A DNA stretch of 64,000 bases from Vicinamibacterales bacterium (GCA_036258175.1 DATAEE010000263.1:1489-65488); one strand, 5' to 3'; positions 11,473 to 24,557 are shown, numbered from the stretch's first letter. Notes: a model not told the origin generated them from the letters alone. Numbers and translations are program-made.

Positions 11473-12120
11473 ATGTTAGGGGGATTTCGGCTCGCGGTCG
11501 CGACGTGTGCGCTGACGGCGATGTCCGCCGTGCCGGCTGCGGCGGAGCTCGTTTATCTCACATCCGGCCGGACGCTCTCGGTCCGCGGCCACCGTGCCGA
11601 AGGGGAATCGATCGTCCTGATGCTCCGGGCCGGTGGCGAGATGATCTGCGACCGTGGGCTCGTGGACCGGATCGAGCCGGACGAGGTCCCATATCCCGAA
11701 CCCGAGACCCTGGCCACGACAGGTCAGACAGCGCCTGTCGAGCTCGCGGCCGTGCCCTTCGGTGAGTTGATCGATGACCTGTCCGCCGCTCACGGCGTGG
11801 ATCCGGTTCTCGTCCGTGCGGTGATTCAGGTCGAGTCGGCATTCGCCCCGAACGCACATTCGCGAAAAGGCGCGCGTGGTCTCATGCAGGTGATGCCCGC
11901 GACGGGACGTCAGTACGGCGCAGGCAATCTTTACGACCCGCGTACGAATCTCGATACCGGCATCCGCCATCTCAAGTCGTTGCTCCAGAAATACGAGCGG
12001 TCGGTCGCGCTCGCCGCGTATAACGCGGGCGAAGCGGCCGTGAAGCGGTTCGGCGGCATTCCGCCGTACGGCGAAACGCGCTCGTACGTTGCGAAGATTC
12101 TTTCGCTGCTCAAGCGCTAA
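11473..12120 (+). CDS. Lytic transglycosylase, SLT domain
   Basis: Signal MLGGFRLAVATCALTAMSAVPAAA. Catalytic VIQVESAFAPNAHSRKGARGLMQVMPAT...LAAYNAGEAAVKRFGGIPPYGETRSYV. Confidence 0.8.
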   Translation: MLGGFRLAVATCALTAMSAVPAAAELVYLTSGRTLSVRGHRAEGESIVLMLRAGGEMICDRGLVDRIEPDEVPYPEPETLATTGQTAPVELAAVPFGELIDDLSAAHGVDPVLVRAVIQVESAFAPNAHSRKGARGLMQVMPATGRQYGAGNLYDPRTNLDTGIRHLKSLLQKYERSVALAAYNAGEAAVKRFGGIPPYGETRSYVAKILSLLKR

Positions 12121-12230
12121 ACGTTCAGCTCAGCCAGTTCGCTTCGAAACCGGTCTAACTGAAGACAGGGTTCGTCACGCGCTTCACGGCGGTGCGCGGG
12201 ATTGCCCTTCGGTTCCGGGTCCGCAACGAG

Positions 12231-12260
12231 TTGAATGTTATAATCCGCTGATCCGATAAT
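12231..12260 (+). promoter_or_regulatory. Candidate sigma-70 promoter for the secretion/pilus operon
   Basis: TTGAAT (12231..12236), 18 nt, GATAAT (12255..12260), in a visibly AT-richer gap. GGAGA Shine-Dalgarno lies ~12 nt before ATG 12282. Confidence 0.3.
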
Positions 12261-12281
12261 CTCCACGGAGACAAGAGCTTA

Positions 12282-13490
12282 ATGGAGTACCGCTGCAGGC
12301 TGGGCACGCCATCCGGAGAAGTGACTGAAGGCGTGTACGTAGCCGACAGTGAATCCCGGCTGAGGCGCGAGCTCGAAGACAAGGGCCTCTACGTCCTTGC
12401 CATCCGGCGCGCCGGCGGCCTCGGGCTGGCGGGCGTCGCGGTACCTCGCAGGCGGAAGCTCTCGACTCGGGAGTTCCTCGTGTTCAACCAGGAGCTCGCG
12501 ACGCTTCTCAAGGCCGGCATGCCGCTCGTACAGTCGCTCGACATTTTGCGTCAGCGGCTGCCGAACCCGGTCTTCAAGGCGGTGCTGGACGACATCCACG
12601 AACGCGTCCGCGCGGGTTCATCGCTCTCGGAGGCCTTCGAAGCCCAAGGCGAGCTCTTTCCTGGCGTCTACACGGCGACGCTGTTCGCCGGCGAGAAGAG
12701 CGGCAACCTCGAGCAGGTTCTCCGCCGCTACGTCGCGTACACGAAGGTGATTTCGGCGGTCCGGCGGCGAACGATCTCGGCGCTCGTTTACCCAATGATC
12801 CTTCTGGCGCTCTCGATCGTTGTCGTCGCGATCATCATGCTGAAGGTCGTTCCGGAGTTCGCGAGCTTCTACGATCAGTTCGGCCGGGAGCTGCCCGCGT
12901 CGACGCGTGTGATCGTTGCTATCTCGACGTTCATCTCGAACTACGTGTTCTTCATCCTGGCGGCGATTGTATCGGCGGGCCTCGGGTTCTGGTACTGGCT
13001 GCAGCGCCCCGGCGAACGAGTCCGAATCGATCACATCGTGCTCAGCCTCCCGCTGGCCGGTCCCACGGTGCGGAAGTACTCGACGTCGCAGGCGGCGCGG
13101 ACTCTCGCCACCCTTCTCGGCGGCGGTATCCCACTCGTGAACGCGCTCGACATCAGCGCGCGTTCGATCGGCAATCAGTTCATGGCGTGCGAACTGCACA
13201 CCGCGGCGCAGCAGGTTCGGGAAGGGCGCGCGCTCGCGCAGGCGTTGAACGAGCGCGGGCACTTTCCCGACGTCGCGATCAAGATGATTGAAGTTGGTGA
13301 GTCCACCGGCGCGCTGCAGGACATGTTGAACAGCCTCGCCGACTTCTACGACGAGGAAATTGAAACCGGGTTGGGCCGGTTCGTGACGCTCGTGGAGCCG
13401 ATACTGCTGGTGACGATGGGGCTCGTGATAGCCGCGTTGCTGCTGGCGCTCTACATGCCGCTCTTCCAACTCTCTTCGGTGTTGCGGTGA
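12282..13490 (+). CDS. Type II secretion system F family platform protein (GspF/PilC)
   Basis: Two T2SSF repeats: FNQELATLLKAGMPLVQSLDIL... and AARTLATLLGGGIPLVNALDI...EVGESTGALQDML. Three TM segments. Confidence 0.9.
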   Translation: MEYRCRLGTPSGEVTEGVYVADSESRLRRELEDKGLYVLAIRRAGGLGLAGVAVPRRRKLSTREFLVFNQELATLLKAGMPLVQSLDILRQRLPNPVFKAVLDDIHERVRAGSSLSEAFEAQGELFPGVYTATLFAGEKSGNLEQVLRRYVAYTKVISAVRRRTISALVYPMILLALSIVVVAIIMLKVVPEFASFYDQFGRELPASTRVIVAISTFISNYVFFILAAIVSAGLGFWYWLQRPGERVRIDHIVLSLPLAGPTVRKYSTSQAARTLATLLGGGIPLVNALDISARSIGNQFMACELHTAAQQVREGRALAQALNERGHFPDVAIKMIEVGESTGALQDMLNSLADFYDEEIETGLGRFVTLVEPILLVTMGLVIAALLLALYMPLFQLSSVLR

Positions 13491-15133
13491 TGGAACCCAG
13501 GACAGTCAGCGATCTTTACACGACGGAAGAACCGTCCGCAGCCGCGCGGGCGGCCGAAGTCGTCCAGGCCCGAAAGCTGGCCGAGCGCTACCGGCTCGAA
13601 TTCGTCGACATGGGGCGGTTCAGCATCGATCACGAGCTGTTCCGCCAGATTCCGGCCGACCTGATGTTGCGCTACGGCTTCGTGCCGTATCGGCGCGAGG
13701 GTGGAGCGCTCGTAATCGTGGTGTCGGACCCGACCGATCTGCCGATGATCGACGAACTCGGCGCGCTGCTGGCAACACCGATCCGCGTCTGCGTCGGCAC
13801 ACCGTCCGCCATCCAGGCGATTCTGAAGAAAAGCGAAAGCTCGCAGCGCGTCCTCGATCAGGCGACCGAGAGCTTCCAGATGCAGATCCTCCGCGACGAG
13901 GACGTCGCCGCGGCCGAAGACAGCCTGACGGTCGATCGCATCACGAGCGACGCGAGTCCGGTCATCCGCCTCGTGGACTCGACAATCTACACAGCAATCC
14001 AGCGGCGGGCAAGCGACATCCATATCGAGACGGGCGACGATGCGGTGCATGTGAAGTACCGGATCGACGGCGTGCTGCAGCCGGCGATGCGGCCGATCGA
14101 CCGGCGCTTCCACAGCACGATCATCTCCCGCGTCAAGGTCATGGCCGAGCTCGATATCGCGGAGAAGCGCGTGCCACAGGACGGCCGCTTCAAGCTGCGG
14201 CTGCCCGAGAAGACGATCGACTTTCGCGTGTCCATCATGCCGAGCGTTCACGGCGAGGACGCCGTCATCCGCATCCTGGACAAGGAATCGATCAGCGAGC
14301 AGTTCAAGGAGCTCCGGCTGGATATCCTCGGCTTCCCGGAGTCCGAGCTGAAGCGGTTCCGAAAGTACATCGCCGAGCCGTACGGGATGGTCCTCGTCAC
14401 AGGTCCCACGGGCAGCGGCAAGACGACAACGCTTTACGCGGCGCTGTCCGAGATCAAGTCGCCCGAAGACAAGATCGTGACGATCGAGGACCCCGTCGAG
14501 TACCAACTCCGCGGCATCACGCAGATCCCGATCAACGAGAAAAAAGGACTGACGTTCGCGCGCGGCCTGCGGTCGATCCTCCGGCACGATCCGGACAAGA
14601 TCATGGTCGGCGAGATCCGCGACCCCGAGACTGCGCAGATTGCGATCCAGTCCGCGTTGACGGGGCATCTCGTTTTTACGACGGTCCACGCGAACAACGT
14701 TGTCGACGTGCTCGGCCGGTTCCTGAACATGGGTGTGGAGCCGTATCAGTTTGTTTCGGCGCTCAACTGCGTGCTGGCGCAGCGCCTGGTGCGGAATATC
14801 TGCATCCACTGCAAGCGGCCAGCGTCGATCACGCGCGAGATGCTGGAAGAGTCGGCGCTCGACCCGGCGCTCCTCCGGTCGCAGGTGTTTTACGAAGGCG
14901 CGGGCTGCATCGAGTGCGCCGGAACCGGCTACAAAGGCCGGACCGCGATCTGCGAGCTCCTCGACCTCTCCGATCCCATCCGCGAGATGATTCTCGAGCG
15001 GCGTCCCACGTCGGAGATCAAGAAGGCGGCGCGGGAAGAAGGCATGCAGTTCCTGCGCGAATCGGCGGTCGAAAAAGTCGTCGGCGGCACGACGACGTTG
15101 CGAGAGATCAACAAGGTGACGTTCGTCGAGTGA
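13487..15133 (+). CDS. GspE/PilB family secretion ATPase
   Basis: T2SSE_N domain (FVPYRREGGALVIVVSDPTD), Walker A VTGPTGSGKTTT, Asp box, Walker B IMVGEIRD, tetracysteine CIHC...CIECAGTGYKGR. GTGATG overlaps the GspF stop (ATG at 13490). Confidence 0.9.
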   Translation: MMEPRTVSDLYTTEEPSAAARAAEVVQARKLAERYRLEFVDMGRFSIDHELFRQIPADLMLRYGFVPYRREGGALVIVVSDPTDLPMIDELGALLATPIRVCVGTPSAIQAILKKSESSQRVLDQATESFQMQILRDEDVAAAEDSLTVDRITSDASPVIRLVDSTIYTAIQRRASDIHIETGDDAVHVKYRIDGVLQPAMRPIDRRFHSTIISRVKVMAELDIAEKRVPQDGRFKLRLPEKTIDFRVSIMPSVHGEDAVIRILDKESISEQFKELRLDILGFPESELKRFRKYIAEPYGMVLVTGPTGSGKTTTLYAALSEIKSPEDKIVTIEDPVEYQLRGITQIPINEKKGLTFARGLRSILRHDPDKIMVGEIRDPETAQIAIQSALTGHLVFTTVHANNVVDVLGRFLNMGVEPYQFVSALNCVLAQRLVRNICIHCKRPASITREMLEESALDPALLRSQVFYEGAGCIECAGTGYKGRTAICELLDLSDPIREMILERRPTSEIKKAAREEGMQFLRESAVEKVVGGTTTLREINKVTFVE

Positions 15134-16083
15134 TGGAGTTTCAACGCGCTCTCAGCTCGCCGGGGCCGCCGCATGCCGTCGAAATTGCCGCACGCCGCGT
15201 GACGGTCGTCGCGATCCGCCATGAAAGCGGAAAGGCGGTCGTGGCCGCGTCGGCGACCGAACCGCTTGCTCCAGGCGTCGTGACCCCGGGCCTGGCGCAC
15301 CCCAATATTCGCGACACCGAAGCAGTCGTCAGCGCGCTGTCCCGGGCGCTCGAGCGGGCGGGAATCCGGCCAAAGCGCGTCGGCCTCGTTATTCCGGATG
15401 CGGCCGCGCGTGTGTCCATCGTCCGGTTCGACACGGTTCCGCCGCGCGCCCGTGATCTCGATGAGCTCGTTCGATGGCAGGTCGGGAAAGGCGCTCCGTT
15501 CCGGATCGAGGAAGGCCAGCTGTCATATGTTCCGGGCGCCGCGGTTGGGACCGGTGGCCGGGAGTTCGTGTCGGTGCTCGTCCGGCGTGACGTCATCGAA
15601 GAGTACGAAGGTGTCTGCGCGCGCGCCGGAATGCACGCCGGCCTCGTGGACATCGCGAGCTTTAACGTGGTGAACGCCGTGCTCGCGGCGGCGCAAGAGA
15701 AGGACGGGGCGGATTGGCTGCTCGTGCATGTCACGCCTGAGGACACGACGCTGGCGATCGTGCGATCGGGAGACCTGATTTTCTTCCGCAATCGTCCGGT
15801 TGGCGAAGGGTCTCTTGAGGACCTGGTGCATCAGACGGCGATGTACTACGAGGACCGCCTTGGCGGGCGGGGCCTCAGCCGCGTGATCGTCGCCGGCGGT
15901 TCCGACGGCGGCGACGCGCTTCGGCGGGCCCTCGAGGATCGGCTACGCGTCAGCGTGGAGAGTATCGATCCGCGCCACGCCGCCGGCCTACGGGATCGCG
16001 TGTCGGCGAGTTCGGACCTCCTTGACGCCATTGCAGCTCCGGTGGGGCTGATCGTGAGGGATACCGCGGGTGCTGCGAACTAA
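15133..16083 (+). CDS. pilM: PilM-like actin-fold pilus/pseudopilus assembly protein
   Basis: ATG at 15133 overlaps the GspE TGA by 1 nt (TGATG). Translation MEFQRALSSPGPPHAVEIAARRVTVVAI...RVGLVIPDAAARVSIVRFD...LVDIASFNVVNAV is the typical PilM pattern. The upstream part of the 14914 ORF overlaps gspE and is rejected. Confidence 0.8.
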   Translation: MEFQRALSSPGPPHAVEIAARRVTVVAIRHESGKAVVAASATEPLAPGVVTPGLAHPNIRDTEAVVSALSRALERAGIRPKRVGLVIPDAAARVSIVRFDTVPPRARDLDELVRWQVGKGAPFRIEEGQLSYVPGAAVGTGGREFVSVLVRRDVIEEYEGVCARAGMHAGLVDIASFNVVNAVLAAAQEKDGADWLLVHVTPEDTTLAIVRSGDLIFFRNRPVGEGSLEDLVHQTAMYYEDRLGGRGLSRVIVAGGSDGGDALRRALEDRLRVSVESIDPRHAAGLRDRVSASSDLLDAIAAPVGLIVRDTAGAAN

Positions 16084-16639
16084 CGTCTCCACGCGGCCGT
16101 TCTATAACGAGCGCGCGGTGCATGTCGGCATCGGGGTCGTCGCAGGGCTCGTCCTGCTCGCGACGCTCATCAACGTGGTGTGGGTCATCTCGTTATCCGC
16201 GCGCAATACGTTGCTCGGGACCCAGATTCGTCAGGACGAGCAGACGGCGGCCAAGCTGGATGCCGAGGCCAAGAGCCTGCGGTCGCGCATCAATCAGCAG
16301 GAGCTCGCCGTCGTCGTGACCGCGGCGCGTGAGGCGAACGCGCTCATCGACCAGCGGACGTTCTCCTGGACGGAATTCTTCAATCTGATCGAGGCGACGC
16401 TTCCCGCGGACGTCATGCTCATGTCGGTATCGCCGACAGTCACGGACGGTGAGACCGAAGTGCGGATGAAGGTCCTGGCGCGGCGGGCGGAGGACATCGA
16501 CGCGTTCATGGAATCGCTCGAGGGAACGAAGGCGTTCGCCGGCCTGTTGCCGATCAGCGAACAGTTGAACGAAGCCGGGCTCCACGATGTAGAACTCGTC
16601 GGACGCTACGTGGCGCCCGTGACGGAGGCTGCACGATGA
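16070..16639 (+). CDS. pilN: PilN-like bitopic assembly protein
   Basis: MLRTNVSTRPFYNERAV, then one TM (VGIGVVAGLVLLATLINVVWV), a coiled coil and a ferredoxin-like C-domain. 14-nt overlap with pilM. Confidence 0.7.
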   Translation: MLRTNVSTRPFYNERAVHVGIGVVAGLVLLATLINVVWVISLSARNTLLGTQIRQDEQTAAKLDAEAKSLRSRINQQELAVVVTAAREANALIDQRTFSWTEFFNLIEATLPADVMLMSVSPTVTDGETEVRMKVLARRAEDIDAFMESLEGTKAFAGLLPISEQLNEAGLHDVELVGRYVAPVTEAAR

Positions 16640-17214
16640 CCTCCTTCAAGCGCATCTTCGACGAGAAGCGCCGGCTGATCGTGCCGCTGCTCATCGCGAT
16701 CGCTGCCAACGTGGCGCTTTATGCGTTCGCGGTCTACCCTCTCGAACGGCGCGTGGCTACCGCCGGTACGCGGGCGGAGGCCGCGGCGGCCGCGCGCCGT
16801 GCGGCCGAGAGCAACCATCGCGACGCGCAGGCGACCGTTACTGGTATGGACCGGGCGGACGAAGAGCTCAAACGGTTCTACAACAACATCCTTCCAACCG
16901 ATCAAACGGGAGCGCGACGGATCACGTACGTGCGCCTCGCCCGCATGGCGCGCGACGCCGGTCTGCGGACGGAGCGCGGCACAATCGAGTCGTCCGCGAT
17001 CGACGACAGCCGGTTGTCACGTCTGCGCATGACGATGACCCTCGAGGGACAGTACGACGAGATTCGCCGGTTCATCCACCGGATCGAAACCGCCCCGGAG
17101 TTCACCGTCATAGAGGACGTTGCCGTTCAGCGCGGCGCCGACGAGGAGGGATCGACGCTCGTCCTGGAGCTTGCCGTCACGACGTACTACTGGACGAATG
17201 GCCATGGCAACTGA
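16636..17214 (+). CDS. pilO: PilO/GspM-like bitopic assembly protein
   Basis: One TM (LIVPLLIAIAANVALYAFAVY), a coiled coil, then LRMTMTLEGQYDEIRRFIHRIE...LVLELAVTTYYW. ATGA overlap with pilN. Confidence 0.6.
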   Translation: MTSFKRIFDEKRRLIVPLLIAIAANVALYAFAVYPLERRVATAGTRAEAAAAARRAAESNHRDAQATVTGMDRADEELKRFYNNILPTDQTGARRITYVRLARMARDAGLRTERGTIESSAIDDSRLSRLRMTMTLEGQYDEIRRFIHRIETAPEFTVIEDVAVQRGADEEGSTLVLELAVTTYYWTNGHGN

Positions 17215-17752: not shown

Positions 17753-17798
17753 CGCCTCCGTGACCCGGGCCGGTACCCCGGGGAGCAGAAAAGGAACG

Positions 17799-20291
17799 AT
17801 GACGCGCAGAGTTCTCTTGATCCTTGTTCTGGCCAGCACAGCCGTTGGGTGCGCCGCGGGGCGCGCGTTCCGGCAGGGTGACGAAGCGGCGCGTCTCGGC
17901 GACTGGGACACGGCTGTCATCCACTACCGCCGTGCGGTCCAGGAGGCGCCCGATCGGCCGGATTACAAGATCCAGCTCGAACGGGCGATGCAGAATGCCG
18001 CTCTGACGCATCTCGCTGCCGCCTACGACCTCGAAGCGAAGGATCAGCTTGATCTGGCGCTGAAGGAATACCGGAAGGCTCTGGAATACGACTTGAGCAA
18101 TCGCATCGCCTCCGCGAAGGCGGCGGAGCTCGAACGGAAGATTCGCGACCGGGTCGAGGCGGCGCGGCCGAAACCCAAGATCGACGAATTGCGCGAAAAG
18201 GCGCGTCAGCTCGGGCAGGAGCCAATCCTGAACCCGGCGCGGCGCGAGCCGCTAAAGGTCGTGTTCAACAACGCCAGCGTCCGCGACATCCTGAACTCGA
18301 TGGGGAGCACCGCGGGTATCAACGTCATCTACGATCAGCAGGCGGAGTCAGCGGTCAACCGCGGGTTCACCGTCAATCTCGAGGGCGTGACGCTCGAAGA
18401 GGCGCTCAACCAGGTCCTCACCGCGAACGGTCTTTTCTACAAAGTCGTCAATCCGCGCACTATCATCGTCATTCCGGATATCCCCGCGAAGCGCGCGCAG
18501 TACGAAGAGCTGGTCATCAAGACCTTCTTCCTCTCTCACGCAGACGCGACCGAGCTGACGACGATGATCAATCAGGTCGCGCGGCTGCCCGGGAGCCAGC
18601 CGGCGGTGATGGCGAACAAGACCGCCAACACGATCACGATCCGGACGACCGCGGCGCTCGCCGCGGTCATCGAGCGGGTTATTCGGGCCAACGACAAGCC
18701 GCGAGCTGAGATCCTGCTCGACGTCGAGATTCTCGAAGTCAACCGGACGCGCCTGAAGGAGTACGGGCTCAATCTGAGCAACTATTCGGTGAACCTGTTC
18801 TTCTCGCCCGAGCAGCCGCCGTCCACTGCGGGCGGCGTGACATCGACTCCACCGTTCAACCTCAATACGATCACGCAGGGCATCAGCACCGCCGACTTCT
18901 ACCTCGCGGTGCCGACTGCAGTCGTCCGGTTTCTCGAGACCGACTCGAACACGCGGATTCTCGCCAAGCCGCAGCTGCGCGGCGCCGAAGGGCAGAAGCT
19001 CACGCTGAACCTAGGTCAACAGGTGCCCGTGCTCTCGACGGTCTTCGGGGCCGCGGCAGCTGGCGGATTTGCGACGATTCCGCAGTCCTCGTTCAATTAC
19101 CGCGACGTCGGCGTCAACCTCGAGATGGAGCCCCGCGTCTCTTACGAGGGCGAGATCATCCTGACGCTCGGCATCGAAGTCAGCGCGCTCGGACCGAACA
19201 TCGAAGTCGCGGGCCAAAACGTCCCGTCGTTCCAGACGCGGCGCGTGTCGACGCGACTCCGGCTGCGCGAAGGGGAGTCGAACCTGCTCGCCGGACTGAT
19301 CCAGCAGAACGAGCGCAAATCGATCAGCGGTTTCCCGGGGCTGATTCGCGTCCCGGTCTTCAAACAGCTCTTCTCGGGCAACCGGAACGAGTCCGAGGAA
19401 AACGACATCGTCATGCTCATCACGCCGCACATCGTGCGGACGCACGAGCTGACCGCGGAAGACCTTGCGCCGATCTTCATCGGCACGCAAGGAAACATCG
19501 GTTTGGGCGGGCCGCCGCCACTTATCGCTCCGCAGCCGATCCCAGAAGAACCGGAATCGAGGATCGATCCCGGCCCAGGCGTCACGCAGCAGCCTGGCAC
19601 GCGTCTGGGCGTGCCGGTCGGGCCGGAGGCCGGGGCAACGCCCGGTGGTGTGCCGCAAACCTCGAGGCCGGGCGTTCCGCCGGGTACGGCACCCACGCCG
19701 GGGCAGCTGCCTCCTGTGGCTCCGGTGGCTCCGCCTGGGGCCGCGCCTGCGACGCCCGCCGTTCCGCCGCCGGGCACCGAACAGCCGCCACCGGTTGCGC
19801 CGCCGGTTCCCTCACGCGAGCGGCCGCCACCGACCGCTCCTGCGACTCCTGAAGCTCCAGCCCCGGCGCCGTCGGCGGCGGCGCAGGTGATCGTGACGCC
19901 TCCGGGCACCGAATTCCGCGTAGCTGGCGGACCGTACACGGTGCCGATTTCGATTAACGGCGTGGCGCGAGCCTCGACGGCGACGATTACGCTGACCTTC
20001 AATTCGTCGACGGTTCGCGCGCGAAACGCCCAGGAGGGCAGTTTCATGCGGCAGGGTGGCGTCGCGACGAGCTTCACGCCACGCGTAGACGCCGTCTCCG
20101 GGCGAGTCGATATCGTGATCACGCGCCTGAGCGATGCGACGGGCGCATCAGGGTCTGGTCTTCTGGCCGCAGTGATCTTCGACGCGATCGCGCCGGGCAG
20201 CACCACGTTTACCGTCAGCGGTTTGGCGACCACGCCGGAAGGCGGGACGATTCCGCTGCAGTTCAGCCCGGTCACGGTGACCATACGATGA
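17799..20291 (+). CDS. Secretin (GspD/PilQ family) with N-terminal lipobox + TPR module and C-terminal Pro-rich linker + cohesin-like domain
   Basis: AAGGAA precedes ATG 17799. MTRRVLLILVLASTAVGCAAG, then TPR (GDWDTAVIHYRRAVQEAPDRPDY...). N0/N1 domains (VRDILNSMGSTAGINVIYD; KTFFLSHADATELTTMI). Secretin core (ILAKPQLRGAEGQKLTLNLGQQVPV...GFPGLIRVPVFKQLFS...IVMLITPHIV). About 125 aa of P/A-rich linker, then VIVTPPGTEFRVAGGPYTVPISINGVARASTATITLTFNSSTV... Confidence 0.85.
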   Translation: MTRRVLLILVLASTAVGCAAGRAFRQGDEAARLGDWDTAVIHYRRAVQEAPDRPDYKIQLERAMQNAALTHLAAAYDLEAKDQLDLALKEYRKALEYDLSNRIASAKAAELERKIRDRVEAARPKPKIDELREKARQLGQEPILNPARREPLKVVFNNASVRDILNSMGSTAGINVIYDQQAESAVNRGFTVNLEGVTLEEALNQVLTANGLFYKVVNPRTIIVIPDIPAKRAQYEELVIKTFFLSHADATELTTMINQVARLPGSQPAVMANKTANTITIRTTAALAAVIERVIRANDKPRAEILLDVEILEVNRTRLKEYGLNLSNYSVNLFFSPEQPPSTAGGVTSTPPFNLNTITQGISTADFYLAVPTAVVRFLETDSNTRILAKPQLRGAEGQKLTLNLGQQVPVLSTVFGAAAAGGFATIPQSSFNYRDVGVNLEMEPRVSYEGEIILTLGIEVSALGPNIEVAGQNVPSFQTRRVSTRLRLREGESNLLAGLIQQNERKSISGFPGLIRVPVFKQLFSGNRNESEENDIVMLITPHIVRTHELTAEDLAPIFIGTQGNIGLGGPPPLIAPQPIPEEPESRIDPGPGVTQQPGTRLGVPVGPEAGATPGGVPQTSRPGVPPGTAPTPGQLPPVAPVAPPGAAPATPAVPPPGTEQPPPVAPPVPSRERPPPTAPATPEAPAPAPSAAAQVIVTPPGTEFRVAGGPYTVPISINGVARASTATITLTFNSSTVRARNAQEGSFMRQGGVATSFTPRVDAVSGRVDIVITRLSDATGASGSGLLAAVIFDAIAPGSTTFTVSGLATTPEGGTIPLQFSPVTVTIR

Positions 20292-20881
20292 TCCGCCAGG
20301 TGCCTCGTGCTTCGTGGTTCGTGCCTCGGGCAGTGCCTCGTGCGCCGTTCCTCGTCCGAGGTCCGAGGTCCGAGGTACGGCCCGAGACCCGAGACCCGAG
20401 GCCCGAGGCACGTACTGCGTTCGAGCACGGTTATACCTTCATTGAGCTGCTGGTCGTCGCGACGATCCTGTTGATCCTCGCGTCGGCGGCAATGCCGCTG
20501 ACGCGCGTGACGGTTCAGCGCACGAAAGAGGCGGAGCTGCGGCGCGTCCTGCGCGAGATGCGCACGGCGATCGACAAGTACAAGGACGCCGTCGATACCG
20601 GGCTCATCTCGAATCTCGACGTGCGCGCTGGCAGCGAAGGATATCCGCCAGACCTCGAGACGCTCGTGGAAGGTGTCACGGTTGCGAACGATGCATCGGG
20701 GCGCAAGCTCAAGTTCCTCCGTCGGATTCCGATCGACCCGTTGACGGGCGAGGCGGAGTGGGGGTTACGCGCGTATCAGGATCGGCCCGACTCCATGTCC
20801 TGGGGCGGGTCGAACGTGTACGACGTCTATTCGCTTGCCGCCGGAGTCGGGTTGGACGGAACGAAATACAGGGATTGGTAG
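20288..20881 (+). CDS. GspG-like pseudopilin / prepilin with an unusually long Arg/Pro-rich leader
   Basis: ATGA overlap with the secretin stop. Class III signal ...AFEHG|YTFIELLVVATILLILASAAMPL (Gly-1, Glu+5). GspG-type body AELRRVLREMRTAIDKYKD...YPPDLETLVEG...IPIDPLTGE...YDVYSLAAGVGLDGTKYRDW. The only in-frame starts (ATG 20288; GTG 20300, 20321, 20333) give 33-48-aa leaders. Confidence 0.75.
   Translation: MIRQVPRASWFVPRAVPRAPFLVRGPRSEVRPETRDPRPEARTAFEHGYTFIELLVVATILLILASAAMPLTRVTVQRTKEAELRRVLREMRTAIDKYKDAVDTGLISNLDVRAGSEGYPPDLETLVEGVTVANDASGRKLKFLRRIPIDPLTGEAEWGLRAYQDRPDSMSWGGSNVYDVYSLAAGVGLDGTKYRDW
20300..20411. repeat. Run of 16 consecutive heptamers forming an imperfect inverted repeat
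   Basis: GTGCCTC GTGCTTC GTGGTTC GTGCCTC GGGCAGT GCCTCGT GCGCCGT TCCTCGT | CCGAGGT x3, ACGGCCC, GAGACCC x2, GAGGCCC, GAGGCAC. The outer 8 bp, GTGCCTCG and CGAGGCAC, are perfectly complementary. CCTCG units in the left arm pair with CGAGG units in the right arm. Confidence 0.7.
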
Positions 20882-20887
20882 CTGGTT

Positions 20888-21280
20888 ATGAAGCGCAGCA
20901 ACTCGCGCGGATGGACGCTTATCGAGCTCCTGATCGTGATCTCACTGATCTCGATCCTCGCGACCATCGGGCTGGCGAGCTATCGCAACTCGGTGACCGC
21001 CTCCAAAGAAGCGATTCTGAAGACGGATCTGTTCCGTATGCGCGACGCGATCGATCAGTATTACGCGGACAAAGGGGAGTACCCGGCATCGCTCGACGCG
21101 CTCGTCAGTGAAGGCTACTTGCGAAAGATCCCCGACGATCCGTTCACGCGTGCCGCGGATTGGCAGACACTTCCGGCCGAGCCGAACCCGAGCAAGCCCA
21201 CGGCCGAGCCTGGCGTCTACGATGTGAAGAGCAGCTCCTCAGACACCGCGCTCGACGGTTCCCGCTACGCTGACTGGTAA
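20888..21280 (+). CDS. GspG-like pseudopilin / prepilin (canonical short leader)
   Basis: MKRSNSRG|WTLIELLIVISLISILATIGLASY (Gly-1, Glu+5). KEAILKTDLFRMRDAIDQYYADKGEYPASLDALVSEGYLRKIPDDPF...DGSRYADW. Confidence 0.85.
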   Translation: MKRSNSRGWTLIELLIVISLISILATIGLASYRNSVTASKEAILKTDLFRMRDAIDQYYADKGEYPASLDALVSEGYLRKIPDDPFTRAADWQTLPAEPNPSKPTAEPGVYDVKSSSSDTALDGSRYADW

Positions 21281-21292
21281 TCCTCAATTGTC

Positions 21293-21310
21293 ACCAGGCT
21301 TTAGCCTGGT
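21293..21310. terminator. Hairpin between convergent genes (possible bidirectional terminator)
   Basis: ACCAGGC-TTTA-GCCTGGT is a perfect 7-bp stem with a 4-nt loop, placed 13 nt after the pseudopilin stop and 5 nt before the stop of the minus-strand PKD gene. No clear U-tract. Confidence 0.4.
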
Positions 21311-21314
21311 CTCG

Positions 21315-22348
21315 TCACGGGCACGTCCCGCTCGTCGGCCGCACTGTTACGGTGCGGGTTGCTACAGCCTCTTCCCCCGTCGTCGTAGTCACACGCACCC
21401 GCGCGGTTCTCGTACCCGTGTTCTCGTACGTATGGACGATGCGGTCCGAGACGGTTGAGGGCGGATCGAACGTGCCGTCGCCTTCGAAATCCCAATCATG
21501 CGTGAGCGGCCGGCCTGTGACATTCGACGACACGGCCCTGAACGTTATCGGCGCGCCGAGCAGCACGCACTCTGGCGTCGCGGTCAACGTGACCGTGAAT
21601 GGCACGGCGGGGAGAACGGTCACAACGGCGCTTGCCGTTCCGGTCACGCCTGCCGTCACTGAATGCGCGCGCACGGAGACAGTCTTCACCCCTGCGGTGT
21701 CGAACACAACACTGTGCGCGTTCGGCCTCGAGAGGAGTTCGAAATTCCCATCGCCGTCTTCATCCCAGTCGAACGACACGATTTGACCGGCGCCGTTCGC
21801 GGCGTGGCAGTCGCCGTGAAGACGAACGTCGTCTCGGTCGTTCCGGTTATGGGCGCGGCATCGAGCGTGACCTCGACGGAAGGCGCTGGCCGTGCTGGAG
21901 GAGGCACTGTTGGAGCGGGGACCGGCGTGGGCGGCGGCGGCGCTGGCGGCACAGGGTGAGGCACACCGCCAGGCGGCACATCCACGCTGACGGGTCGCTC
22001 GACGATGAGGCCTGGCGCCGTCGCCCGGATGATTGTGGACGTCGACAGAAACAGCCGCTGCGCGAACTCACCGTCTTCGTCGAGTTCCACAGGGTTCGGC
22101 GTCTCGCGCCCGTCGTTCACCAGCACAAGCCGCACGGCATCCGGCGCCACACGCATGCCGACATCGGTCGTTGCGCGCAGTTCGATATTGACTGGGTCGG
22201 CAGCGGGCAATCGATCCGGCGTTGCGTTCAGCGTGAGTGAGCGAACCGGGCCGAACTGATCAGTCGGCGGCGTCGGCCCATCGTCGCATCCCAGGCTGAT
22301 GAGGACCGAGAGGAGGCCGACGCCGCCGACGACTCTGGTTATCGCCAT
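21315..22348 (-). pseudogene. PKD-domain (lipo)protein interrupted by a 1-nt frameshift near 21797-21803 (true pseudogene or assembly error)
   Basis: ORF 21686..22348 (MAITRVVGGVGLLSVLISLGCDD..., Pro-rich linker, ...TTFVFTATATP) loses sense exactly where ORF 21315..21779, read in the -1 frame, continues the same PKD domain (ANGAGQIVSFDWDEDGDGNFE...). A second PKD domain follows (THDWDFEGDGTFD...IVHTYENTGTRTARVRV). Total length 1034 nt, not a multiple of 3. Confidence 0.6.
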
Positions 22349-22390
22349 GGCCGCTCCGGTTCATGCGAGAGCCGGGCCATGCGAGCACGT

Positions 22391-22426
22391 GATGCGGCGC
22401 TCGACGGATCGCGCTACGCGGATTGG
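22391..22426 (+). pseudogene. 36-nt relic of a pseudopilin 3-prime end in an intergenic gap
   Basis: gat gcg gcg ctc gac gga tcg cgc tac gcg gat tgg (DAALDGSRYADW) compared with 21242..21277 of the second pseudopilin (DTALDGSRYADW). 29/36 nt identical, 11/12 codons encode the same residue, and 5 of the 6 differing codons are synonymous. The stop is replaced by CAG. Confidence 0.4.
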
Positions 22427-22429
22427 CAG

Positions 22430-23743
22430 CTACCGGATGCTGCCCGTCGCCGTTACGTTGACACTCGCCTGACCCGTCCCTGTGGGCCCGGCCGCTTGGG
22501 TTACAACGACAGTAATCGTAAATGTGCCAATGGTCGTGTAGACCTTCGATGTCTGGTTCCCCGTAGTGGTAGCCGTTGTCCCGTCGCCGAAGTTCCAATC
22601 GTAGCGCACGATCGTCGAAGTCGCCCCGCTGACGATTGCGGTCAGGTTGACCTGTTGATTGATCGCCGGAACCGCGTCGGAGACATTAACAACCACGCCT
22701 GGCGGTTGCCCCGGCAGGATCGTAATGTCGGTCGCTACGGTCTCCTGATCGCCTGTCGACTGCGTCGCGGTCGCGCTGACTTCGTACGTGCCTGCGACCC
22801 GATACGTGTGTTGAATCGTGGTCGAACCGCTGATCGCTCCGAGCGACCGAGCCTCGCCGTCCCCGAAATCAATGCGGACATTTGTGATGTTCGCCGTCGC
22901 GGCGACCGCGACGGTGAACGTCGCCGGCAGCCCTTCTGACGGCGGGGTCGCTGGCCCGGTAAGTGTCAGCCCGCTGCGCGGGCGCAAGCTGACCGTGATC
23001 TTACCTTCTGCAGCGCCGGATCGCGCCACGACATCCGCACTCGCATTCGCCTGCAGTGTCGCGACGGCGATTCCATTGTTGTCCGTATTGGCAGTCGATG
23101 GCGTGATGTTGCCCGCCGTCGTGCTGAACGTTACAGGCGCGCCGGAGACCACCGAGCCTTCTGCGTCCTCGACTCGCGCGGAAATCTGACTCGTACCTCC
23201 GACGGCGGGAAGCTGCGCCGGACTCGCTGAAAGAATGACTCTCGATGACGCGGCAGAACCAACCCTGATCGCGAGGCTCGCGGATCGGGCGCCGCCGGAG
23301 AACGCAACCACGGTCGCGGTTCCAGATTGACCAGTCGACGTGAGCCGAACGCTCGCCTGCCCGTTGTGTGTGCGCGCCTCCGCAGGCTCCAGACGTCCCA
23401 GCGTCGTCGTAAACGTGATGACAGTGCCGTTGTGGACTGGGGTGCCGGTGCCGGGCGTGCCAGGCGTTGGCGTCGGAGTCGTCGGAGTCGTCGGTGTGCC
23501 GGGCGTAGGAGGCGTCGGAGTCGGAGTTGTCGGTGTGCTCGGAGCGGCTCCAGCCTCGATGGCAATCGCCGTTATATCCACAGAGCCGTTCAGCGGCAGA
23601 ACCATGCTCGTCGAGAACAACGAGATGACGGTGCCTTGCGGCGCCAAAAGGGGCAGCTTGTCGCAGGAGCCGCTCGCGATTGCTCCGAGGGCTGCGACGA
23701 CGGCAAGCGCCAGACGGCTGCGAAGGCGTGCGTGTGCTACCAT
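22430..23743 (-). CDS. Exported Big_1 (invasin-like Ig) + 2x PKD domain protein with Pro/Thr linker
   Basis: MVAHARLRSRLALAVVAALGAIASGSC signal. PTPTPPTPGTPTTPTTPTPTPGTPGTGTP linker. Big_1-like segments (NGQASVRLTSTGQSGTATVVAFSG; NNGIAVATLQANAS). PKD motifs (VRIDFGDGEA...HTYRVAGTYEV; VRYDWNFGDGTT...KVYTTIGTFTITV). Alternative ATG at 23770. Confidence 0.75.
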   Translation of the reverse strand: MVAHARLRSRLALAVVAALGAIASGSCDKLPLLAPQGTVISLFSTSMVLPLNGSVDITAIAIEAGAAPSTPTTPTPTPPTPGTPTTPTTPTPTPGTPGTGTPVHNGTVITFTTTLGRLEPAEARTHNGQASVRLTSTGQSGTATVVAFSGGARSASLAIRVGSAASSRVILSASPAQLPAVGGTSQISARVEDAEGSVVSGAPVTFSTTAGNITPSTANTDNNGIAVATLQANASADVVARSGAAEGKITVSLRPRSGLTLTGPATPPSEGLPATFTVAVAATANITNVRIDFGDGEARSLGAISGSTTIQHTYRVAGTYEVSATATQSTGDQETVATDITILPGQPPGVVVNVSDAVPAINQQVNLTAIVSGATSTIVRYDWNFGDGTTATTTGNQTSKVYTTIGTFTITVVVTQAAGPTGTGQASVNVTATGSIR

Positions 23744-23768
23744 GGATACTCTTAAGATATTACGGTCC

Positions 23769-24557
23769 ATGTACTTACGAGGTCAAGCACGGAGAGCGGC
23801 GGGTTCCAGGACGCGCAGGAATCCGGCCGGCTACGCGATGGCGGCCTTGCTGGTCGCGATCGCCGTGCTGACCATCATGTTGTCGGTCGCGATGCCCGTT
23901 TGGCGCCATGAAATGCAGCGAGAACGGGAAGCCGAGCTCGTATTCCGAGGCGAGCAGTACGTCCGCGCGATTGACCTGTTTCAGCGCAAGTACGCCGGCG
24001 CTTTGCCGCCGACAATCGATCTCCTTGTCACCGAGCGCTTTCTTCGGAAGAAGTACAAGGACCCGATGACTGAGGACGGTGAGTTCCGGGTCATCGCCGC
24101 CGGTGCGCAACAACAGCCCGGATCGCCGCAGCCGGGCGGACCCGATGCTCCCCCGGGCCAGCAGCCTCAGCTGCGCGCGACGGTTCAACCGCCCACGTCG
24201 GCGTTCGGACAGAACCGACCTGGTGCGCAACCGTCGGTCGGCGCGGGCATCATTGGCGTCGCGAGCAAGAGCAAGGAAAAGTCGATTCGGCTCTACAAGG
24301 GCCGGAGCAAATACGACGAGTGGCAATTCATCTTTGCCAGCATCGGCGCGCGTCCGGGCGCGCCGGGCCAACAGCCGAATCGGCCTGGACAGCAAAACCT
24401 GCCTGGCATACGTCCCGGTTTTCCGCGTCCCGGTCAAGGACAGCCCGGCATGCCGGGACAACCCGGACCGGGAGATCCGCTGCGGCGTCGTCCAGGCATG
24501 AATCCGCCGGTCGTCAAGCCCGGAACCTCGGGCACGGGTCAACGTCCTCCCGGCTAG
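23769..24557 (+). CDS. Atypical GspG-like pseudopilin lacking Glu+5, with Gly/Pro/Gln-rich insert and tail
   Basis: MYLRGQARRAAGSRTRRNPAG|YAMAALLVAIAVLTIMLSVAMPVW, then REAELVFRGEQYVRAIDLFQRKYAGALPPTIDLLVTERFLRKKYKDPMT and YKGRSKYDEWQF (parallels the DGxxYxDW ends of the other two). The C-terminal ~70 aa is PGQ-rich. Alternative ATG at 23742. Confidence 0.55.
   Translation: MYLRGQARRAAGSRTRRNPAGYAMAALLVAIAVLTIMLSVAMPVWRHEMQREREAELVFRGEQYVRAIDLFQRKYAGALPPTIDLLVTERFLRKKYKDPMTEDGEFRVIAAGAQQQPGSPQPGGPDAPPGQQPQLRATVQPPTSAFGQNRPGAQPSVGAGIIGVASKSKEKSIRLYKGRSKYDEWQFIFASIGARPGAPGQQPNRPGQQNLPGIRPGFPRPGQGQPGMPGQPGPGDPLRRRPGMNPPVVKPGTSGTGQRPPG

What the first reader, a model, noticed from the sequence alone, without database searches (positions are those of the whole stretch)
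11473..24557. Hybrid secretion/pilus cluster: T2SS-type ATPase, platform and GspG-like pseudopilins combined with a T4P-type PilMNOP alignment complex
One 13-kb block encodes, in order: an SLT transglycosylase, GspF, GspE, PilM, PilN, PilO, a PilP-like protein, a secretin, two GspG-like pseudopilins, two antisense exported Ig-like proteins, and a third pseudopilin-like protein. Canonical T2SS use GspC/L/M and minor pseudopilins GspH-K. Canonical T4aP have PilA-type pilins, PilT and minor pilins. Here the inner-membrane connector is T4P-like, while all three fibre subunits are GspG-like (DPxxG...Y.DW ends). I see no GspH/I/J/K, no retraction ATPase and no prepilin peptidase in the window. The system falls between the defined classes and may be a lineage-specific secretion machine.
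Basis: partly seen in the sequence, partly recalled or inferred. Interest (0 to 1): 0.6.

Follow-up and report, generated by a model that had tools for sequence, protein, structure and literature searches.

The report
Pul-type "atypical" type II secretion cluster
This is an intact gene cluster for a secretion or pilus machine of a type already catalogued as the "Pul/atypical" type II secretion system of Geobacter and the "unorthodox T2SS" of Ralstonia, so it is not a one-off hybrid; most soil Acidobacteria carry it, and those that lack it usually have the textbook system.

Summary
The genes lie at the stated coordinates in the stated order, and F through pilin 2 overlap like a single operon.

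The "lineage-specific hybrid" reading does not hold. The same unit occurs in three phyla: platform, ATPase, PilM/N/O/P-like proteins, a TPR lipoprotein secretin and three dedicated pilins.
- **Acidobacteriota:** 125 of 151 sampled genomes have the ATPase ortholog.
- **Desulfobacterota:** this is the Geobacter/Pelobacter "Pul" system (pulF-E-M-N-O-P-Q-pulG-oxpG, plus tklG). It is reported as required for secretion of OmpB.
- **Beta/Gammaproteobacteria:** this is the "unorthodox T2SS" of Ralstonia solanacearum.

In a careful tree, the ATPases of these loci form one clade (100/100 support). It is separate from NCBIfam-validated GspE and PilB.

The third pilin lacks Glu5 in all 13 sequences examined, as GspK-type tip subunits do.

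The genome also has a separate canonical T4aP, which includes the only PilD-type prepilin peptidase. It has Tad loci but no orthodox T2SS. Among Acidobacteriota, orthodox T2SS and Pul-type loci are nearly mutually exclusive (2 genomes with both, 20 with orthodox only, 123 with Pul only, 6 with neither).

The most likely function is protein secretion by a short endopilus. This is inferred, not shown.

An earlier follow-up in this scan (e1-2840835) reached the same reading on another genome. The cluster is a new member of a known but little-studied kind.

The parts
10477..11382 (+). Upstream 301-aa predicted lipoprotein with no Pfam hit. It is a conserved neighbour in related Acidobacteriota loci, but membership of the system is uncertain.
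   Evidence: No Pfam family. tblastn homologs lie upstream of the cluster in L018, L028 and L153.
11446..12120 (+). SLT-family lytic transglycosylase, probably for local peptidoglycan remodelling during machine assembly.
   Evidence: PF01464 at 2e-25. It is 54% identical to the SLT gene in the Paraburkholderia cluster. It sits at the same position in L018 and L019.
12282..13490 (+). Inner-membrane platform protein (PulF; GspF/PilC family).
   Evidence: PF00482 at 4e-57. TIGR02120 GspF scores 362.6 bits, below the 424 cut-off, against 300 bits for Myxococcus PilC. It is 32% identical to the genome's own PilC.
13487..15133 (+). Assembly ATPase (PulE), a member of the Pul-type clade that is distinct from GspE and PilB. 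It has a CxxC...CxxC motif.
   Evidence: The careful tree gives a Pul clade of 28 rows at 100/100. It is 40% identical to the genome's own PilB, 53% to the Ralstonia ATPase, and 59-64% to the Desulfobacterota ATPases. The Cys motif is at residues 439 and 474.
15130..16083 (+). PilM-like actin-fold cytoplasmic protein (PulM).
   Evidence: PF11104 at 1e-16. TIGR01175 scores 85.6 bits, below the 133 cut-off. The only significant (E<0.001) PDB hits are PilM structures; the two other hits are unrelated proteins at E 0.08 and 0.54. hhalign to the genome's own PilM gives 99% probability.
16070..16639 (+). PilN-like bitopic protein (PulN). Its N-terminal motif TN(V/L)(S/A)TRPFYNER is comparable to the INLLP peptide of PilN.
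   Evidence: hhalign gives 97.4% to the genome's own PilN and 96.8% to the proteobacterial gene at the same position. The N-terminal motifs were compared by eye.
16636..17214 (+). PilO/GspM-like bitopic protein (PulO).
   Evidence: Pfam T2SSM_b at 1.6e-5 and PilO at 2.9e-5. NF040576 GspM scores 34.5 bits, below the 60 cut-off. hhalign gives 93% to the genome's own PilO and 98.8% to the proteobacterial counterpart.
17198..17752 (+). PilP/GspC-like protein (PulP): membrane anchor, Pro-rich linker and a C-terminal beta domain.
   Evidence: NF041515 GspC_delta at 3e-7, below threshold. hhalign gives 98.8% to the proteobacterial gene at the same position.
17799..20291 (+). Secretin lipoprotein (PulQ) with an N-terminal TPR module and a C-terminal cohesin-like domain on a Pro-rich tether.
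   Evidence: PF00263 at 2.5e-35, with TPR, STN, Secretin_N and a weak Cohesin hit. TIGR02517 GspD scores 144 bits against 112 for PilQ, both below cut-off. It is 26-27% identical over about 650 aa to the TPR secretins of Ralstonia and Paraburkholderia.
20288..20881 (+). Pseudopilin p1, at the PulG position. It is the most conserved pilin of the system.
   Evidence: It is 50% identical to Ralstonia p1, about 52% to the Desulfobacterota pilin, and 76% to the Vicinamibacterales pilin. The only hit of its profile in the PDB that extends beyond the N-terminal helix is PulG/GspG (5wda, 2.7e-7, positions 3-106).
20888..21280 (+). Pseudopilin p2, at the OxpG position.
   Evidence: TIGR01710 GspG scores 43 bits, below the 88.85 cut-off. 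It is 37.5% identical to Ralstonia p2 and about 50% to the Desulfobacterota p2.
21315..22348 (-). PKD-domain lipoprotein gene split into two overlapping ORFs, apparently by a frameshift. It is not conserved in the relatives examined.
   Evidence: PKD at 1.7e-10 in the 3' ORF. There is no tblastn homolog in the related loci or elsewhere in the genome.
22430..23770 (-). Big_1 + PKD lipoprotein. It is a conserved neighbour of pilin p3 in Acidobacteriota Pul loci and a candidate cargo or accessory protein.
   Evidence: PKD_4 at 3.7e-21 and Big_1 at 2.5e-10. Homologs lie beside p3 in L018 (51% identical), L019, L028 and L153.
23742..24557 (+). Pilin-like p3, of the TklG type. It lacks Glu5, carries low-complexity P/G/Q inserts, and is a candidate tip or initiator subunit.
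   Evidence: The cleavage site is G|YAMAALL. Position +5 is never Glu in the 13 sequences examined from three phyla. Shared motifs are ELxFRG, YxDP(M/I/F)T and Y.(E/D)W.F.

Best explanation
The block is an intact operon-like cluster for a Pul-type ('atypical' or 'unorthodox') type II secretion-like machine. This is an old, self-contained branch of the type IV filament superfamily.

**Proposed mechanism** (inferred from homology to T2SS and T4aP parts)
- The PulE hexamer drives the PulF platform to polymerise three dedicated pilins.
- PilD, encoded in the separate T4aP locus, is presumed to process those pilins.
- The pilins form a short periplasmic filament. The Glu5-less p3 starts or caps it, and p1 and p2 form the body.
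- PulM-N-O-P form the cytoplasm-to-periplasm alignment complex, playing the role of GspL/M/C.
- PulP links the complex to a self-piloting lipoprotein TPR secretin.
- The SLT enzyme opens the peptidoglycan.
- The filament pushes folded periplasmic proteins out through the secretin.

**Shown here:** gene content and intactness; orthology and synteny with the Geobacter/Pelobacter-type and Ralstonia-type loci; a separate ATPase clade; and a near-exclusive distribution with orthodox T2SS in Acidobacteriota.

**Inferred:** protein secretion as the function, the roles of the three pilins, PilD sharing, and the cargo. The conserved Big_1/PKD lipoprotein is one candidate cargo.
For: - **Domain content and gene overlaps:**
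- **Synteny with Proteobacteria:** Ralstonia and Paraburkholderia loci read G-F-E-4 genes-TPR secretin-3 pilins(-SLT). Identities are E 50-53%, p1 44-50% and p2 36-37%. The literature calls these 'unorthodox T2SS' with four hypothetical genes between gspE and gspD.
- **Match to the Pul system:** the Pelobacter/Geobacter Pul order is pulF-E-M-N-O-P-Q-pulG-oxpG followed by ftsE, ftsX, an M23 peptidase and ctpA, and Pul is stated to be required for OmpB secretion. A complete Desulfobacterota genome has exactly that order and the same FtsE, FtsX, M23 and S41 downstream genes. Its E is 60.7% and its p1 51.6% identical to the window's.
- **Further loci:** 15 more named or unnamed loci show the same order.
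- **ATPase phylogeny:** in the careful tree the Pul clade has 100/100 support with phylum-level subclades. It is separate from the NCBIfam-validated GspE clade (100/97) and from PilB.
- **Positional homology of the connector genes:** N, O and P match their counterparts at 97-99% hhalign probability; M matches at E 2e-4.
- **Third pilin:** p3 never has Glu5.
- **Distribution:** the ATPase ortholog (at least 54% identical) is in 125 of 151 Acidobacteriota genomes, against 47% or less for PilB paralogs.
- **Orthodox T2SS elsewhere in the phylum:** orthodox E-F-G-H-I-J-K-L-M-C-D loci occur almost only where Pul is missing.
- **This genome:** it has no GspL and no orthodox GspE. It has PilD and a complete T4aP elsewhere.
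Against: - No experiment exists for any Acidobacteriota system.
- The Geobacter evidence (Mehta et al. 2006) could only be read through a citing paper, because the original is not held.
- The closest solved ATPases are PilB proteins (432 bits against 365 for GspE), and M/N/O are PilMNO-like. A surface pilus is therefore not excluded.
- The deep branching order of the Pul, GspE and PilB clades is unresolved.
- AlphaFold models of p1 and p3 gave no PDB fold match, so their pilin fold beyond the N-terminal helix rests on sequence profiles only.
- The anti-correlation with orthodox T2SS involves related genomes and is not a statistical test.
Confidence: 0.8

Rival explanations
1. The machine builds a surface-exposed, non-retractile type IV-like pilus used for adhesion, aggregation or electron transfer. 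It is not a periplasmic secretion piston.
For: - M/N/O/P are PilMNOP-like, not GspL/M/C-like.
- The closest solved ATPases are PilB proteins.
- Denise et al. 2019 place MSH pili and the Bacteroidetes 'T2SS' close to T4aP.
- The secretin carries an outward-looking cohesin-like domain.
Against: - The pilins are short and GspG-like. p1's only extended PDB match is PulG, and the GspG model is the best NCBIfam hit for both p1 and p2.
- The cluster contains no retraction ATPase, PilY1 or adhesin-type minor pilins.
- The genome already has a complete T4aP and Tad pili.
- The Geobacter homolog is reported as a secretion system.
- Its distribution in Acidobacteriota is complementary to orthodox T2SS, not to T4aP.
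Confidence: 0.13
2. The machine is a DNA-uptake (competence) pseudopilus.
For: - The Pelobacter genome paper notes that pul loci sit near cell-division and DNA-uptake or DNA-metabolism genes.
- Competence pseudopili also use few pilins and no dedicated retraction ATPase.
Against: - The window locus has no ComEA/ComEC-type genes beside it. Its neighbours are amino-sugar salvage and microcompartment genes.
- The pilins are GspG-like.
- The system substitutes for orthodox T2SS across the phylum.
Confidence: 0.04
3. The cluster is a recent lineage-specific chimera of T2SS and T4P modules.
For: Profile scores are mixed. F, D and G lean towards Gsp models, M/N/O lean towards Pil models, and E ties between the two.
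Against: - The whole unit, including all three pilins, is conserved in the same order in Acidobacteriota, Desulfobacterota and Pseudomonadota.
- The ATPase clade splits by phylum with strong support.
Confidence: 0.03

Closest known systems
Pul ('atypical') type II secretion system of Geobacter sulfurreducens and Pelobacter carbinolicus (Mehta et al. 2006, Microbiology 152:2257; annotation in Aklujkar et al. 2012, PMC3543383)
   Same: - The gene order is pulF-pulE-pulM-pulN-pulO-pulP-pulQ (secretin lipoprotein)-pulG-oxpG, with a third pseudopilin (tklG).
- In a Desulfobacterota genome with that exact locus and its ftsEX, M23 and ctpA neighbours, the ATPase is 60.7% and p1 51.6% identical to the window's.
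- The third pilin lacks Glu5 there too.
   Different: - In the window, p3 is kept at the locus, but two antisense PKD/Big_1 lipoprotein genes separate it from p2.
- The window locus has an SLT gene and a lipoprotein gene upstream.
- The window's secretin has a C-terminal cohesin-like domain.
- No OmpB link is known in Acidobacteriota.
- The Geobacter sequences themselves were not available by name.
[quoted passage not shown]
   Same: - The order is F-E-four small genes-TPR secretin-three pilins, with an SLT gene in Paraburkholderia.
- E is 50-53%, p1 44-50% and p2 36-37% identical, and p3 lacks Glu5.
- The four 'hypothetical' genes are positional homologs of N, O and P (97-99% hhalign) and, more weakly, of M.
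   Different: - The proteobacterial loci add a canonical GspG gene upstream of F. The acidobacterial and Desulfobacterota loci do not have it.
- Their first small gene has diverged from PilM beyond BLAST detection.
- Some genomes carry two copies (Ralstonia in the literature; Massilia).
- No function has been reported in the papers read.
Orthodox T2SS (Gsp/Pul of Klebsiella, Eps, Xcp)
   Same: It has a secretin, a GspE-family ATPase with a tetracysteine motif, a GspF-family platform, GspG-like pilins, no retraction ATPase, and a one-locus organisation.
   Different: - The ATPase lies outside the validated GspE clade.
- Split PilM and PilN take the place of GspL, and the O and P proteins are PilO/PilP-like.
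- There are no GspH, I, J or K genes. A single Glu5-less pilin stands in their place.
- All NCBIfam equivalog scores are below cut-off.
Type IVa pilus (PilBCMNOPQ, PilA, PilT)
   Same: It has a PilMNOP-like alignment complex and a lipoprotein/TPR-assisted secretin. PilB structures are the best PDB hits for the ATPase.
   Different: - The genome has its own complete T4aP elsewhere, only 20-40% identical to the window's components.
- The locus has no PilT, PilA-type pilin or PilY1/minor-pilin set.
- By eye, the ATPase lacks the extra N-terminal c-di-GMP-type MshEN motif seen in the genome's own PilB.
Bacteroidetes (Cytophaga) 'T2SS', discussed by Denise, Abby and Rocha 2019 (PMC6668835)
   Same: It is another secretion-type machine that falls outside the T2SS clade and that MacSyFinder classes as 'generic'. 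The authors suggest such systems may have arisen independently from T4aP.
   Different: It was not compared by sequence here, and no evidence links the two lineages.

Membership tests
Orthodox T2SS (Gsp) | GspE-clade ATPase (TIGR02533 equivalog) | tested here: not met
   It scores 538.4 bits against a cut-off of 630.25. In the careful tree it lies outside the clade that holds E. coli GspE and the hits above cut-off.
Orthodox T2SS (Gsp) | GspL and GspM assembly proteins, and GspC | tested here: not met
   PF05134 (GspL) has no hit in the whole genome, which is 97.8% complete. The M/N/O profiles match PilM/N/O and not E. coli GspL/M/C. The GspM and GspC_delta models give only sub-threshold hits.
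Orthodox T2SS (Gsp) | Minor pseudopilins GspH, I, J and K | tested here: not met
   The locus has only three pilins. None reaches a GspH-K model cut-off. The other pilin genes of the genome lie in T4aP-type minor-pilin/PilY1 clusters. The single PF03934 hit is a short HhH-type match on contig C165, and that model also rings in 10 of 14 control genomes.
Orthodox T2SS (Gsp) | Secretin, GspF platform and GspG-type major pseudopilin in one locus | tested here: inconclusive
   All are present as family members, and the Gsp models are the best-scoring ones. Every score is below the equivalog cut-off: GspD 144 of 351, GspF 363 of 424, GspG 43 of 89.
Type IVa pilus | PilB-clade assembly ATPase plus PilT retraction ATPase | tested here: not met
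   TIGR02538 scores 541.6 bits against a cut-off of 675.65. The ATPase lies outside the PilB groups in the tree. PilT genes lie only on contigs C296 and C19, with the canonical T4aP.
Type IVa pilus | PilM-PilN-PilO-PilP-PilQ alignment and secretin module | tested here: met
   hhalign to the genome's own PilM, PilN and PilO gives 99%, 97% and 93%. The only significant PDB hits are PilM structures. A PilP-type C-terminal domain is seen by eye.
Type IVa pilus | PilA-type major pilin and a PilVWX/PilY1 priming complex | tested here: not met
   The locus pilins are GspG-like. PilA-type pilins and PilY1 clusters are encoded elsewhere.
Pul-type atypical/unorthodox T2SS | Gene order F-E-M-N-O-P-secretin lipoprotein-pilin-pilin, with a third pilin | tested here: met
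   The window order equals the Pelobacter Table S4 order. It also equals that of the Desulfobacterota, proteobacterial and acidobacterial loci.
Pul-type atypical/unorthodox T2SS | ATPase in the clade shared by loci with that gene order | tested here: met
   A clade of 28 rows at 100/100 contains the window, 16 context-verified loci, 10 further Acidobacteriota orthologs and a second Massilia copy.
Pul-type atypical/unorthodox T2SS | Orthologs of the three dedicated pilins (PulG, OxpG and TklG positions), the third without Glu5 | tested here: met
   p1 is 44-76% and p2 36-67% identical across phyla. The p3 family is aligned, and position +5 is never Glu. Equating these with the named Geobacter proteins rests on position and on the transketolase neighbourhood, not on named sequences.
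Pul-type atypical/unorthodox T2SS | Function: secretion of folded exoproteins (OmpB in Geobacter) | not testable with these tools
   This is known only from Mehta et al. 2006 as cited in PMC3543383. The original paper is not held.

The most novel reading that the evidence does not exclude
Pul-type machines are a separate, ancient class of type IV filament system, and they are the main route for folded-protein export in most Acidobacteriota. In this reading they work with a minimal three-pilin endopilus, in which one Glu5-less subunit replaces the GspHIJK tip complex. In Acidobacteriota, a cohesin-tailed, self-piloting secretin may also dock cargo or surface partners such as the conserved Big_1/PKD lipoprotein.
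Probability: 0.4. Interest if true: 0.6.

Novelty: new member of a known kind. Interest (0 to 1): 0.33.

Why it matters
Acidobacteriota are among the most abundant soil bacteria, and they are thought to live by secreting enzymes that break down polymers. How they export these proteins has not been studied experimentally.

This work shows that most of them carry the Pul-type system and not the textbook T2SS. It also shows that the same machine is the 'unorthodox T2SS' of Ralstonia and the 'atypical T2SS' of Geobacter. Three separate annotation traditions therefore describe one class.

That gives tractable model organisms for studying the system. It also points to a gap in the standard classification models (TXSScan/TFF-SF), which would probably label such loci 'generic'.

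For this window the finding itself is ordinary. It is one more intact copy of a widespread system.

Tried and rejected
- **AlphaFold2 models of p3 and p1.** p3 came out at mean pLDDT 68.9 with a confident core, and p1 at 63.9 with a poor C-terminal half. Foldseek against the PDB gave no match below E = 5 for either. Fold-level assignment of the pilins therefore failed.
- **Profile searches against PDB sequences.** These were used in place of the fold search. p1 reaches PulG at 2.7e-7, while p3 reaches it only at 0.084.
- **BLAST of the proteobacterial 'hypothetical' genes against the window's M/N/O/P.** This was nearly blank. Only profile-profile comparison linked them, and M to h1 remains weak at 48% probability and E 2e-4.
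- **The original Geobacter paper.** Mehta et al. 2006 is not in the library.
- **Literature on Acidobacteria secretion systems.** Searches found nothing specific.
- **The GspE model cut-off.** The TIGR02533 cut-off of 630 bits proved leaky, because acidobacterial PilBs score 580-650 bits. I therefore used 658 bits or more, a separate locus and context checks to call orthodox T2SS.
- **The promoter and terminator scan.** It gave chance-level counts.
- **Minor-pilin clusters on C87, C255 and C296.** I considered whether they serve this system and rejected the idea. They have the T4aP PilY1-type architecture.
- **The orphan secretin on C348/C262.** I considered whether it marks a second Pul system. 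No second ATPase or platform of this type exists in the genome.

Full report
**1. What is in the window**

The window is contig C263 of a 6.7-Mb, 435-contig genome that is 97.8% complete. Close ATPase homologs in public data are named Vicinamibacterales, phylum Acidobacteriota.

- SLT transglycosylase (11446-12120)
- GspF/PilC platform (12282-13490)
- GspE/PilB ATPase (13487-15133)
- PilM-like (15130-16083)
- PilN-like (16070-16639)
- PilO/GspM-like (16636-17214)
- PilP/GspC-like (17198-17752)
- TPR lipoprotein secretin (17799-20291)
- two prepilins (20288-20881 and 20888-21280)
- two antisense PKD/Big_1 lipoprotein genes
- a third pilin-like gene (23742-24557) whose mature N-terminus, G|YAMAALL, has no Glu5

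Neighbouring genes from the platform to the second pilin overlap by 4-17 nt or lie 7 nt apart, so they look like one translationally coupled operon.

All NCBIfam equivalog scores are below cut-off, and they point in different directions:

| Component | Best models and scores | Cut-offs |
|---|---|---|
| ATPase | PilB 541.6; GspE 538.4 | 675.65; 630.25 |
| Platform | GspF 363; PilC 300 | 424; 700 |
| Secretin | GspD 144; PilQ 112 | 351; 284 |
| Pilins | GspG 43 and 25 | 88.85 |
| PilM-like | PilM 85.6 | 133 |

The statement that the system sits between the textbook classes is therefore correct at the level of profile scores.

**2. The rest of the genome**

The genome has a separate, complete T4aP:
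- pilB-pilT-pilC-pilSR-pilA-pilA and pilD on contig C296
- pilMNOPQ on contig C61
- minor-pilin/PilY1 clusters on contigs C87 and C255

It also has two Tad loci, one with its own peptidase and secretin, and an extra pilT. The window's proteins are only 20-40% identical to the T4aP paralogs.

The genome has no second ATPase or platform of the window's type. It has no GspL and no credible GspK. The missing peptidase is thus available in trans, and the retraction ATPases belong to another machine.

An orphan secretin 35% identical to the window's lies across the junction of contigs C348 and C262, behind a LolA-like gene.

**3. The same unit occurs in other phyla**

A tblastn search of plasmid and chromid records with the ATPase gave best hits of 50-53% identity. 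That is higher than the identity to the genome's own PilB. The hits lie on the Ralstonia solanacearum megaplasmid and on Cupriavidus and Paraburkholderia chromids.

The annotated loci read gspG-gspF-gspE-four hypothetical genes-TPR secretin-three pilins, with an SLT gene in Paraburkholderia. Identities to the window's proteins are:
- p1: 50% (Ralstonia) and 44% (Paraburkholderia)
- p2: 37.5% and 36%
- SLT: 54%
- p3: it lacks Glu5 in both

The Ralstonia literature calls these clusters 'unorthodox T2SS', with seven core genes and four hypothetical genes between gspE and gspD (PMC5080846 and PMC6428702). I found no functional data on them.

A scan of species-representative genomes with a p1 alignment returned full-length p1 relatives. 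They came from Vicinamibacterales and other Acidobacteriota, Bryobacterales, Burkholderiales, Massilia, Nitrosomonadales, Steroidobacteraceae, Pseudomonas monteilii, Rhodoferax and a deltaproteobacterial MAG. Mapping the window and Ralstonia proteins onto these loci shows the same gene order throughout.

**4. Link to the Geobacter 'Pul' system**

The Pelobacter carbinolicus genome paper (PMC3543383) states that Geobacteraceae have two T2SS. One is Gsp. [quoted passage not shown] Pul has the pseudopilins PulG, OxpG and TklG.

Its Table S4 gives the order pulF, pulE, pulM, pulN, pulO, pulP, pulQ (secretin lipoprotein), pulG, oxpG. These are followed by ftsE, ftsX, an M23 peptidase and ctpA. tklG lies elsewhere.

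I searched 151 genomes of the phylum of a Thermodesulfobacteriota locus with the p1 profile. Eleven had strong full-length hits. Five loci were fetched, and all read F-E-M-N-O-P-secretin-p1-p2(-p3). Their ATPases are 59-64% identical to the window's, and their PilM-like genes are detectable by BLAST.

In one complete genome (G255), p2 is followed by FtsE, FtsX, M23 and S41 (CtpA) genes, exactly as in the Pelobacter table. The p3-type pilin of that genome lies at a separate locus directly after split transketolase genes, and it also lacks Glu5. This fits the name TklG, although the origin of the name is my inference.

I could not obtain the named Geobacter sequences.

**5. Phylogeny and positional homology**

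I collected 57 ATPases:
- the window's ATPase
- 16 from loci verified by p1 context
- 10 further Acidobacteriota orthologs
- E. coli GspE and HofB
- hits above the NCBIfam GspE or PilB cut-offs from five genomes that also carry a Pul-type locus
- acidobacterial PilBs
- other ATPases from three further genomes
- two PilTs as outgroup

The careful IQ-TREE run gave these results:
- All Pul-type ATPases form one clade with 100/100 support and a stem length of 0.66.
- Within it are subclades for Acidobacteriota (100/97), Desulfobacterota (99/90) and Pseudomonadota (100/100).
- The validated GspE sequences form their own clade (100/97).
- PilB sequences lie elsewhere.
- The order of these deep clades is unresolved.

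Profile-profile comparison shows that the four genes between E and the secretin are positional homologs across phyla. N, O and P match at 96.8-98.8% probability. M matches at 48% and E 2e-4.

The acidobacterial and Desulfobacterota M, N and O profiles match the genome's own PilM, PilN and PilO at 99%, 97% and 93%. They give nothing significant against E. coli GspL, GspM or GspC. The only significant PDB hits for the PilM-like protein are PilM structures.

The PilN-like N-terminus carries a conserved xNL(A/S)T motif reminiscent of the INLLP peptide that binds PilM (by eye).

**6. The pilins**

p1 is the most conserved pilin, at 42-76% identity across phyla. The only PDB match of its profile that extends beyond the N-terminal helix is Klebsiella PulG.

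The p3 family aligns well. It shares the motifs ELxFRG, YxDP(M/I/F)T and Y.(E/D)W.F. Position +5 is A, V, G, H, W or T in the 13 sequences examined and is never Glu.

It is established for T2SS that GspK, the tip subunit, lacks Glu5. The first subunit of a filament has no preceding N-terminus to neutralise. By analogy, p3 is the best candidate for the initiating or tip subunit of a minimal three-pilin filament. This is an inference.

The proteobacterial loci add a canonical GspG gene. The acidobacterial and Desulfobacterota loci do not.

**7. Distribution in Acidobacteriota**

Among 151 sampled genomes, 125 have an ATPase that is at least 54% identical to the window's (578 bits or more). PilB paralogs are at most 47% identical, and the gap between the two groups is clean. 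The gene order is kept in distant families, with some rearranged or split cases, and one genome has two copies.

A GspE-model search found 22 genomes with a separate hit of 658 bits or more. In the two I inspected, the locus is an orthodox E-F-G-H-I-J-K-L-M-C-D T2SS.

| | Orthodox present | Orthodox absent |
|---|---|---|
| Pul present | 2 | 123 |
| Pul absent | 20 | 6 |

The six genomes with neither include several incomplete ones. The genomes are related, so this is a pattern and not a test. It suggests that the two systems fill the same role.

**8. Accessory genes**

The Big_1/PKD lipoprotein (22430-23770) has homologs beside p3 in four other acidobacterial loci, one of them co-directional between p2 and p3. 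The upstream 301-aa lipoprotein also recurs in related loci. The frameshifted PKD gene (21315-22348) does not recur.

The conserved lipoprotein is a reasonable candidate for cargo or an accessory part. This is a lead only.

**9. Verdict**

The interpretation as a lineage-specific hybrid is not supported. The cluster is a typical member of the Pul-type or 'unorthodox' T2SS-like class, which is known from annotation and from one genetic study in Geobacter but is otherwise unstudied.

I reached this reading before seeing that an earlier follow-up in this scan (e1-2840835) had reached it for another genome. The scan has flagged the same system on several other genomes as well.

Secretion by a short endopilus is the most likely function (about 0.6). 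A surface pilus is the main alternative.

Three things failed. The structure predictions of p1 and p3 added nothing. The original Geobacter paper was not held.

Noticed in passing
G000 contigs C348:4772-5521 and C262:1-1125 (outside the window): An orphan secretin with the same N-terminal TPR module is split across two contig ends. It is 35% identical to the window's secretin and is preceded by a LolA-like gene. No second Pul-type ATPase or platform exists anywhere in the genome.
   Followed up: partly
Acidobacteriota sample, e.g. L146 (G017:C2:4119000-4138900) and L147 (G088:C1:3700000-3719900): Families that lack the Pul-type ATPase carry an orthodox T2SS (E-F-G-H-I-J-K-L-M-C-D). By eye, its GspE has an N-terminal MshEN-type c-di-GMP motif. 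The two systems are almost mutually exclusive across 151 genomes.
   Followed up: partly
window 23741-23770: The divergent starts of p3 (ATG at 23742) and the Big_1/PKD lipoprotein (ATG at 23770 on the minus strand) overlap by 29 nt as called. A CCATGG palindrome holds p3's ATG and an alternative Met10 start of the lipoprotein. The AT-rich 25 nt between the alternative starts (23744-23768) may be the true intergenic region, so both annotated starts are doubtful.
   Followed up: partly
window 22379-22429: A plus-strand ORF in the gap between the two antisense genes begins MRARDAALDGSRYADW. This repeats the C-terminus of pilin p2 (…ALDGSRYADW), which suggests a rearrangement or duplication when the PKD gene was inserted.
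   Followed up: no
window 20288-20431: As called, pilin p1 has a 47-residue Arg/Pro-rich leader before the G|Y cleavage site, with no alternative ATG, GTG or TTG start in between. The relatives' match in L018 starts close to the cleavage site, while L019 shares part of the long leader.
   Followed up: no
L098:2116-3621 (G255) and window 19900-20291: A 501-aa cohesin-domain protein is encoded a few genes from the Pul cluster of a Desulfobacterota genome. In the window and its close relatives, the secretin itself ends in a cohesin-like domain. This may point to a recurring association between cohesin domains and Pul systems.
   Followed up: no
L152 and L153 (G002:C1, about 40 kb apart); L022 and L122 (Massilia terrae): Some genomes carry two full or partial copies of the Pul-type system, as reported for Ralstonia. 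The paired ATPases are each other's closest relatives in the tree, which points to duplication within the lineage.
   Followed up: partly
G000:C137:74854-77172 (outside the window): A 772-aa protein carries only a partial T2SSE ATPase domain (PF00437 positions 122-280) and lies in a locus with no other filament genes.
   Followed up: no
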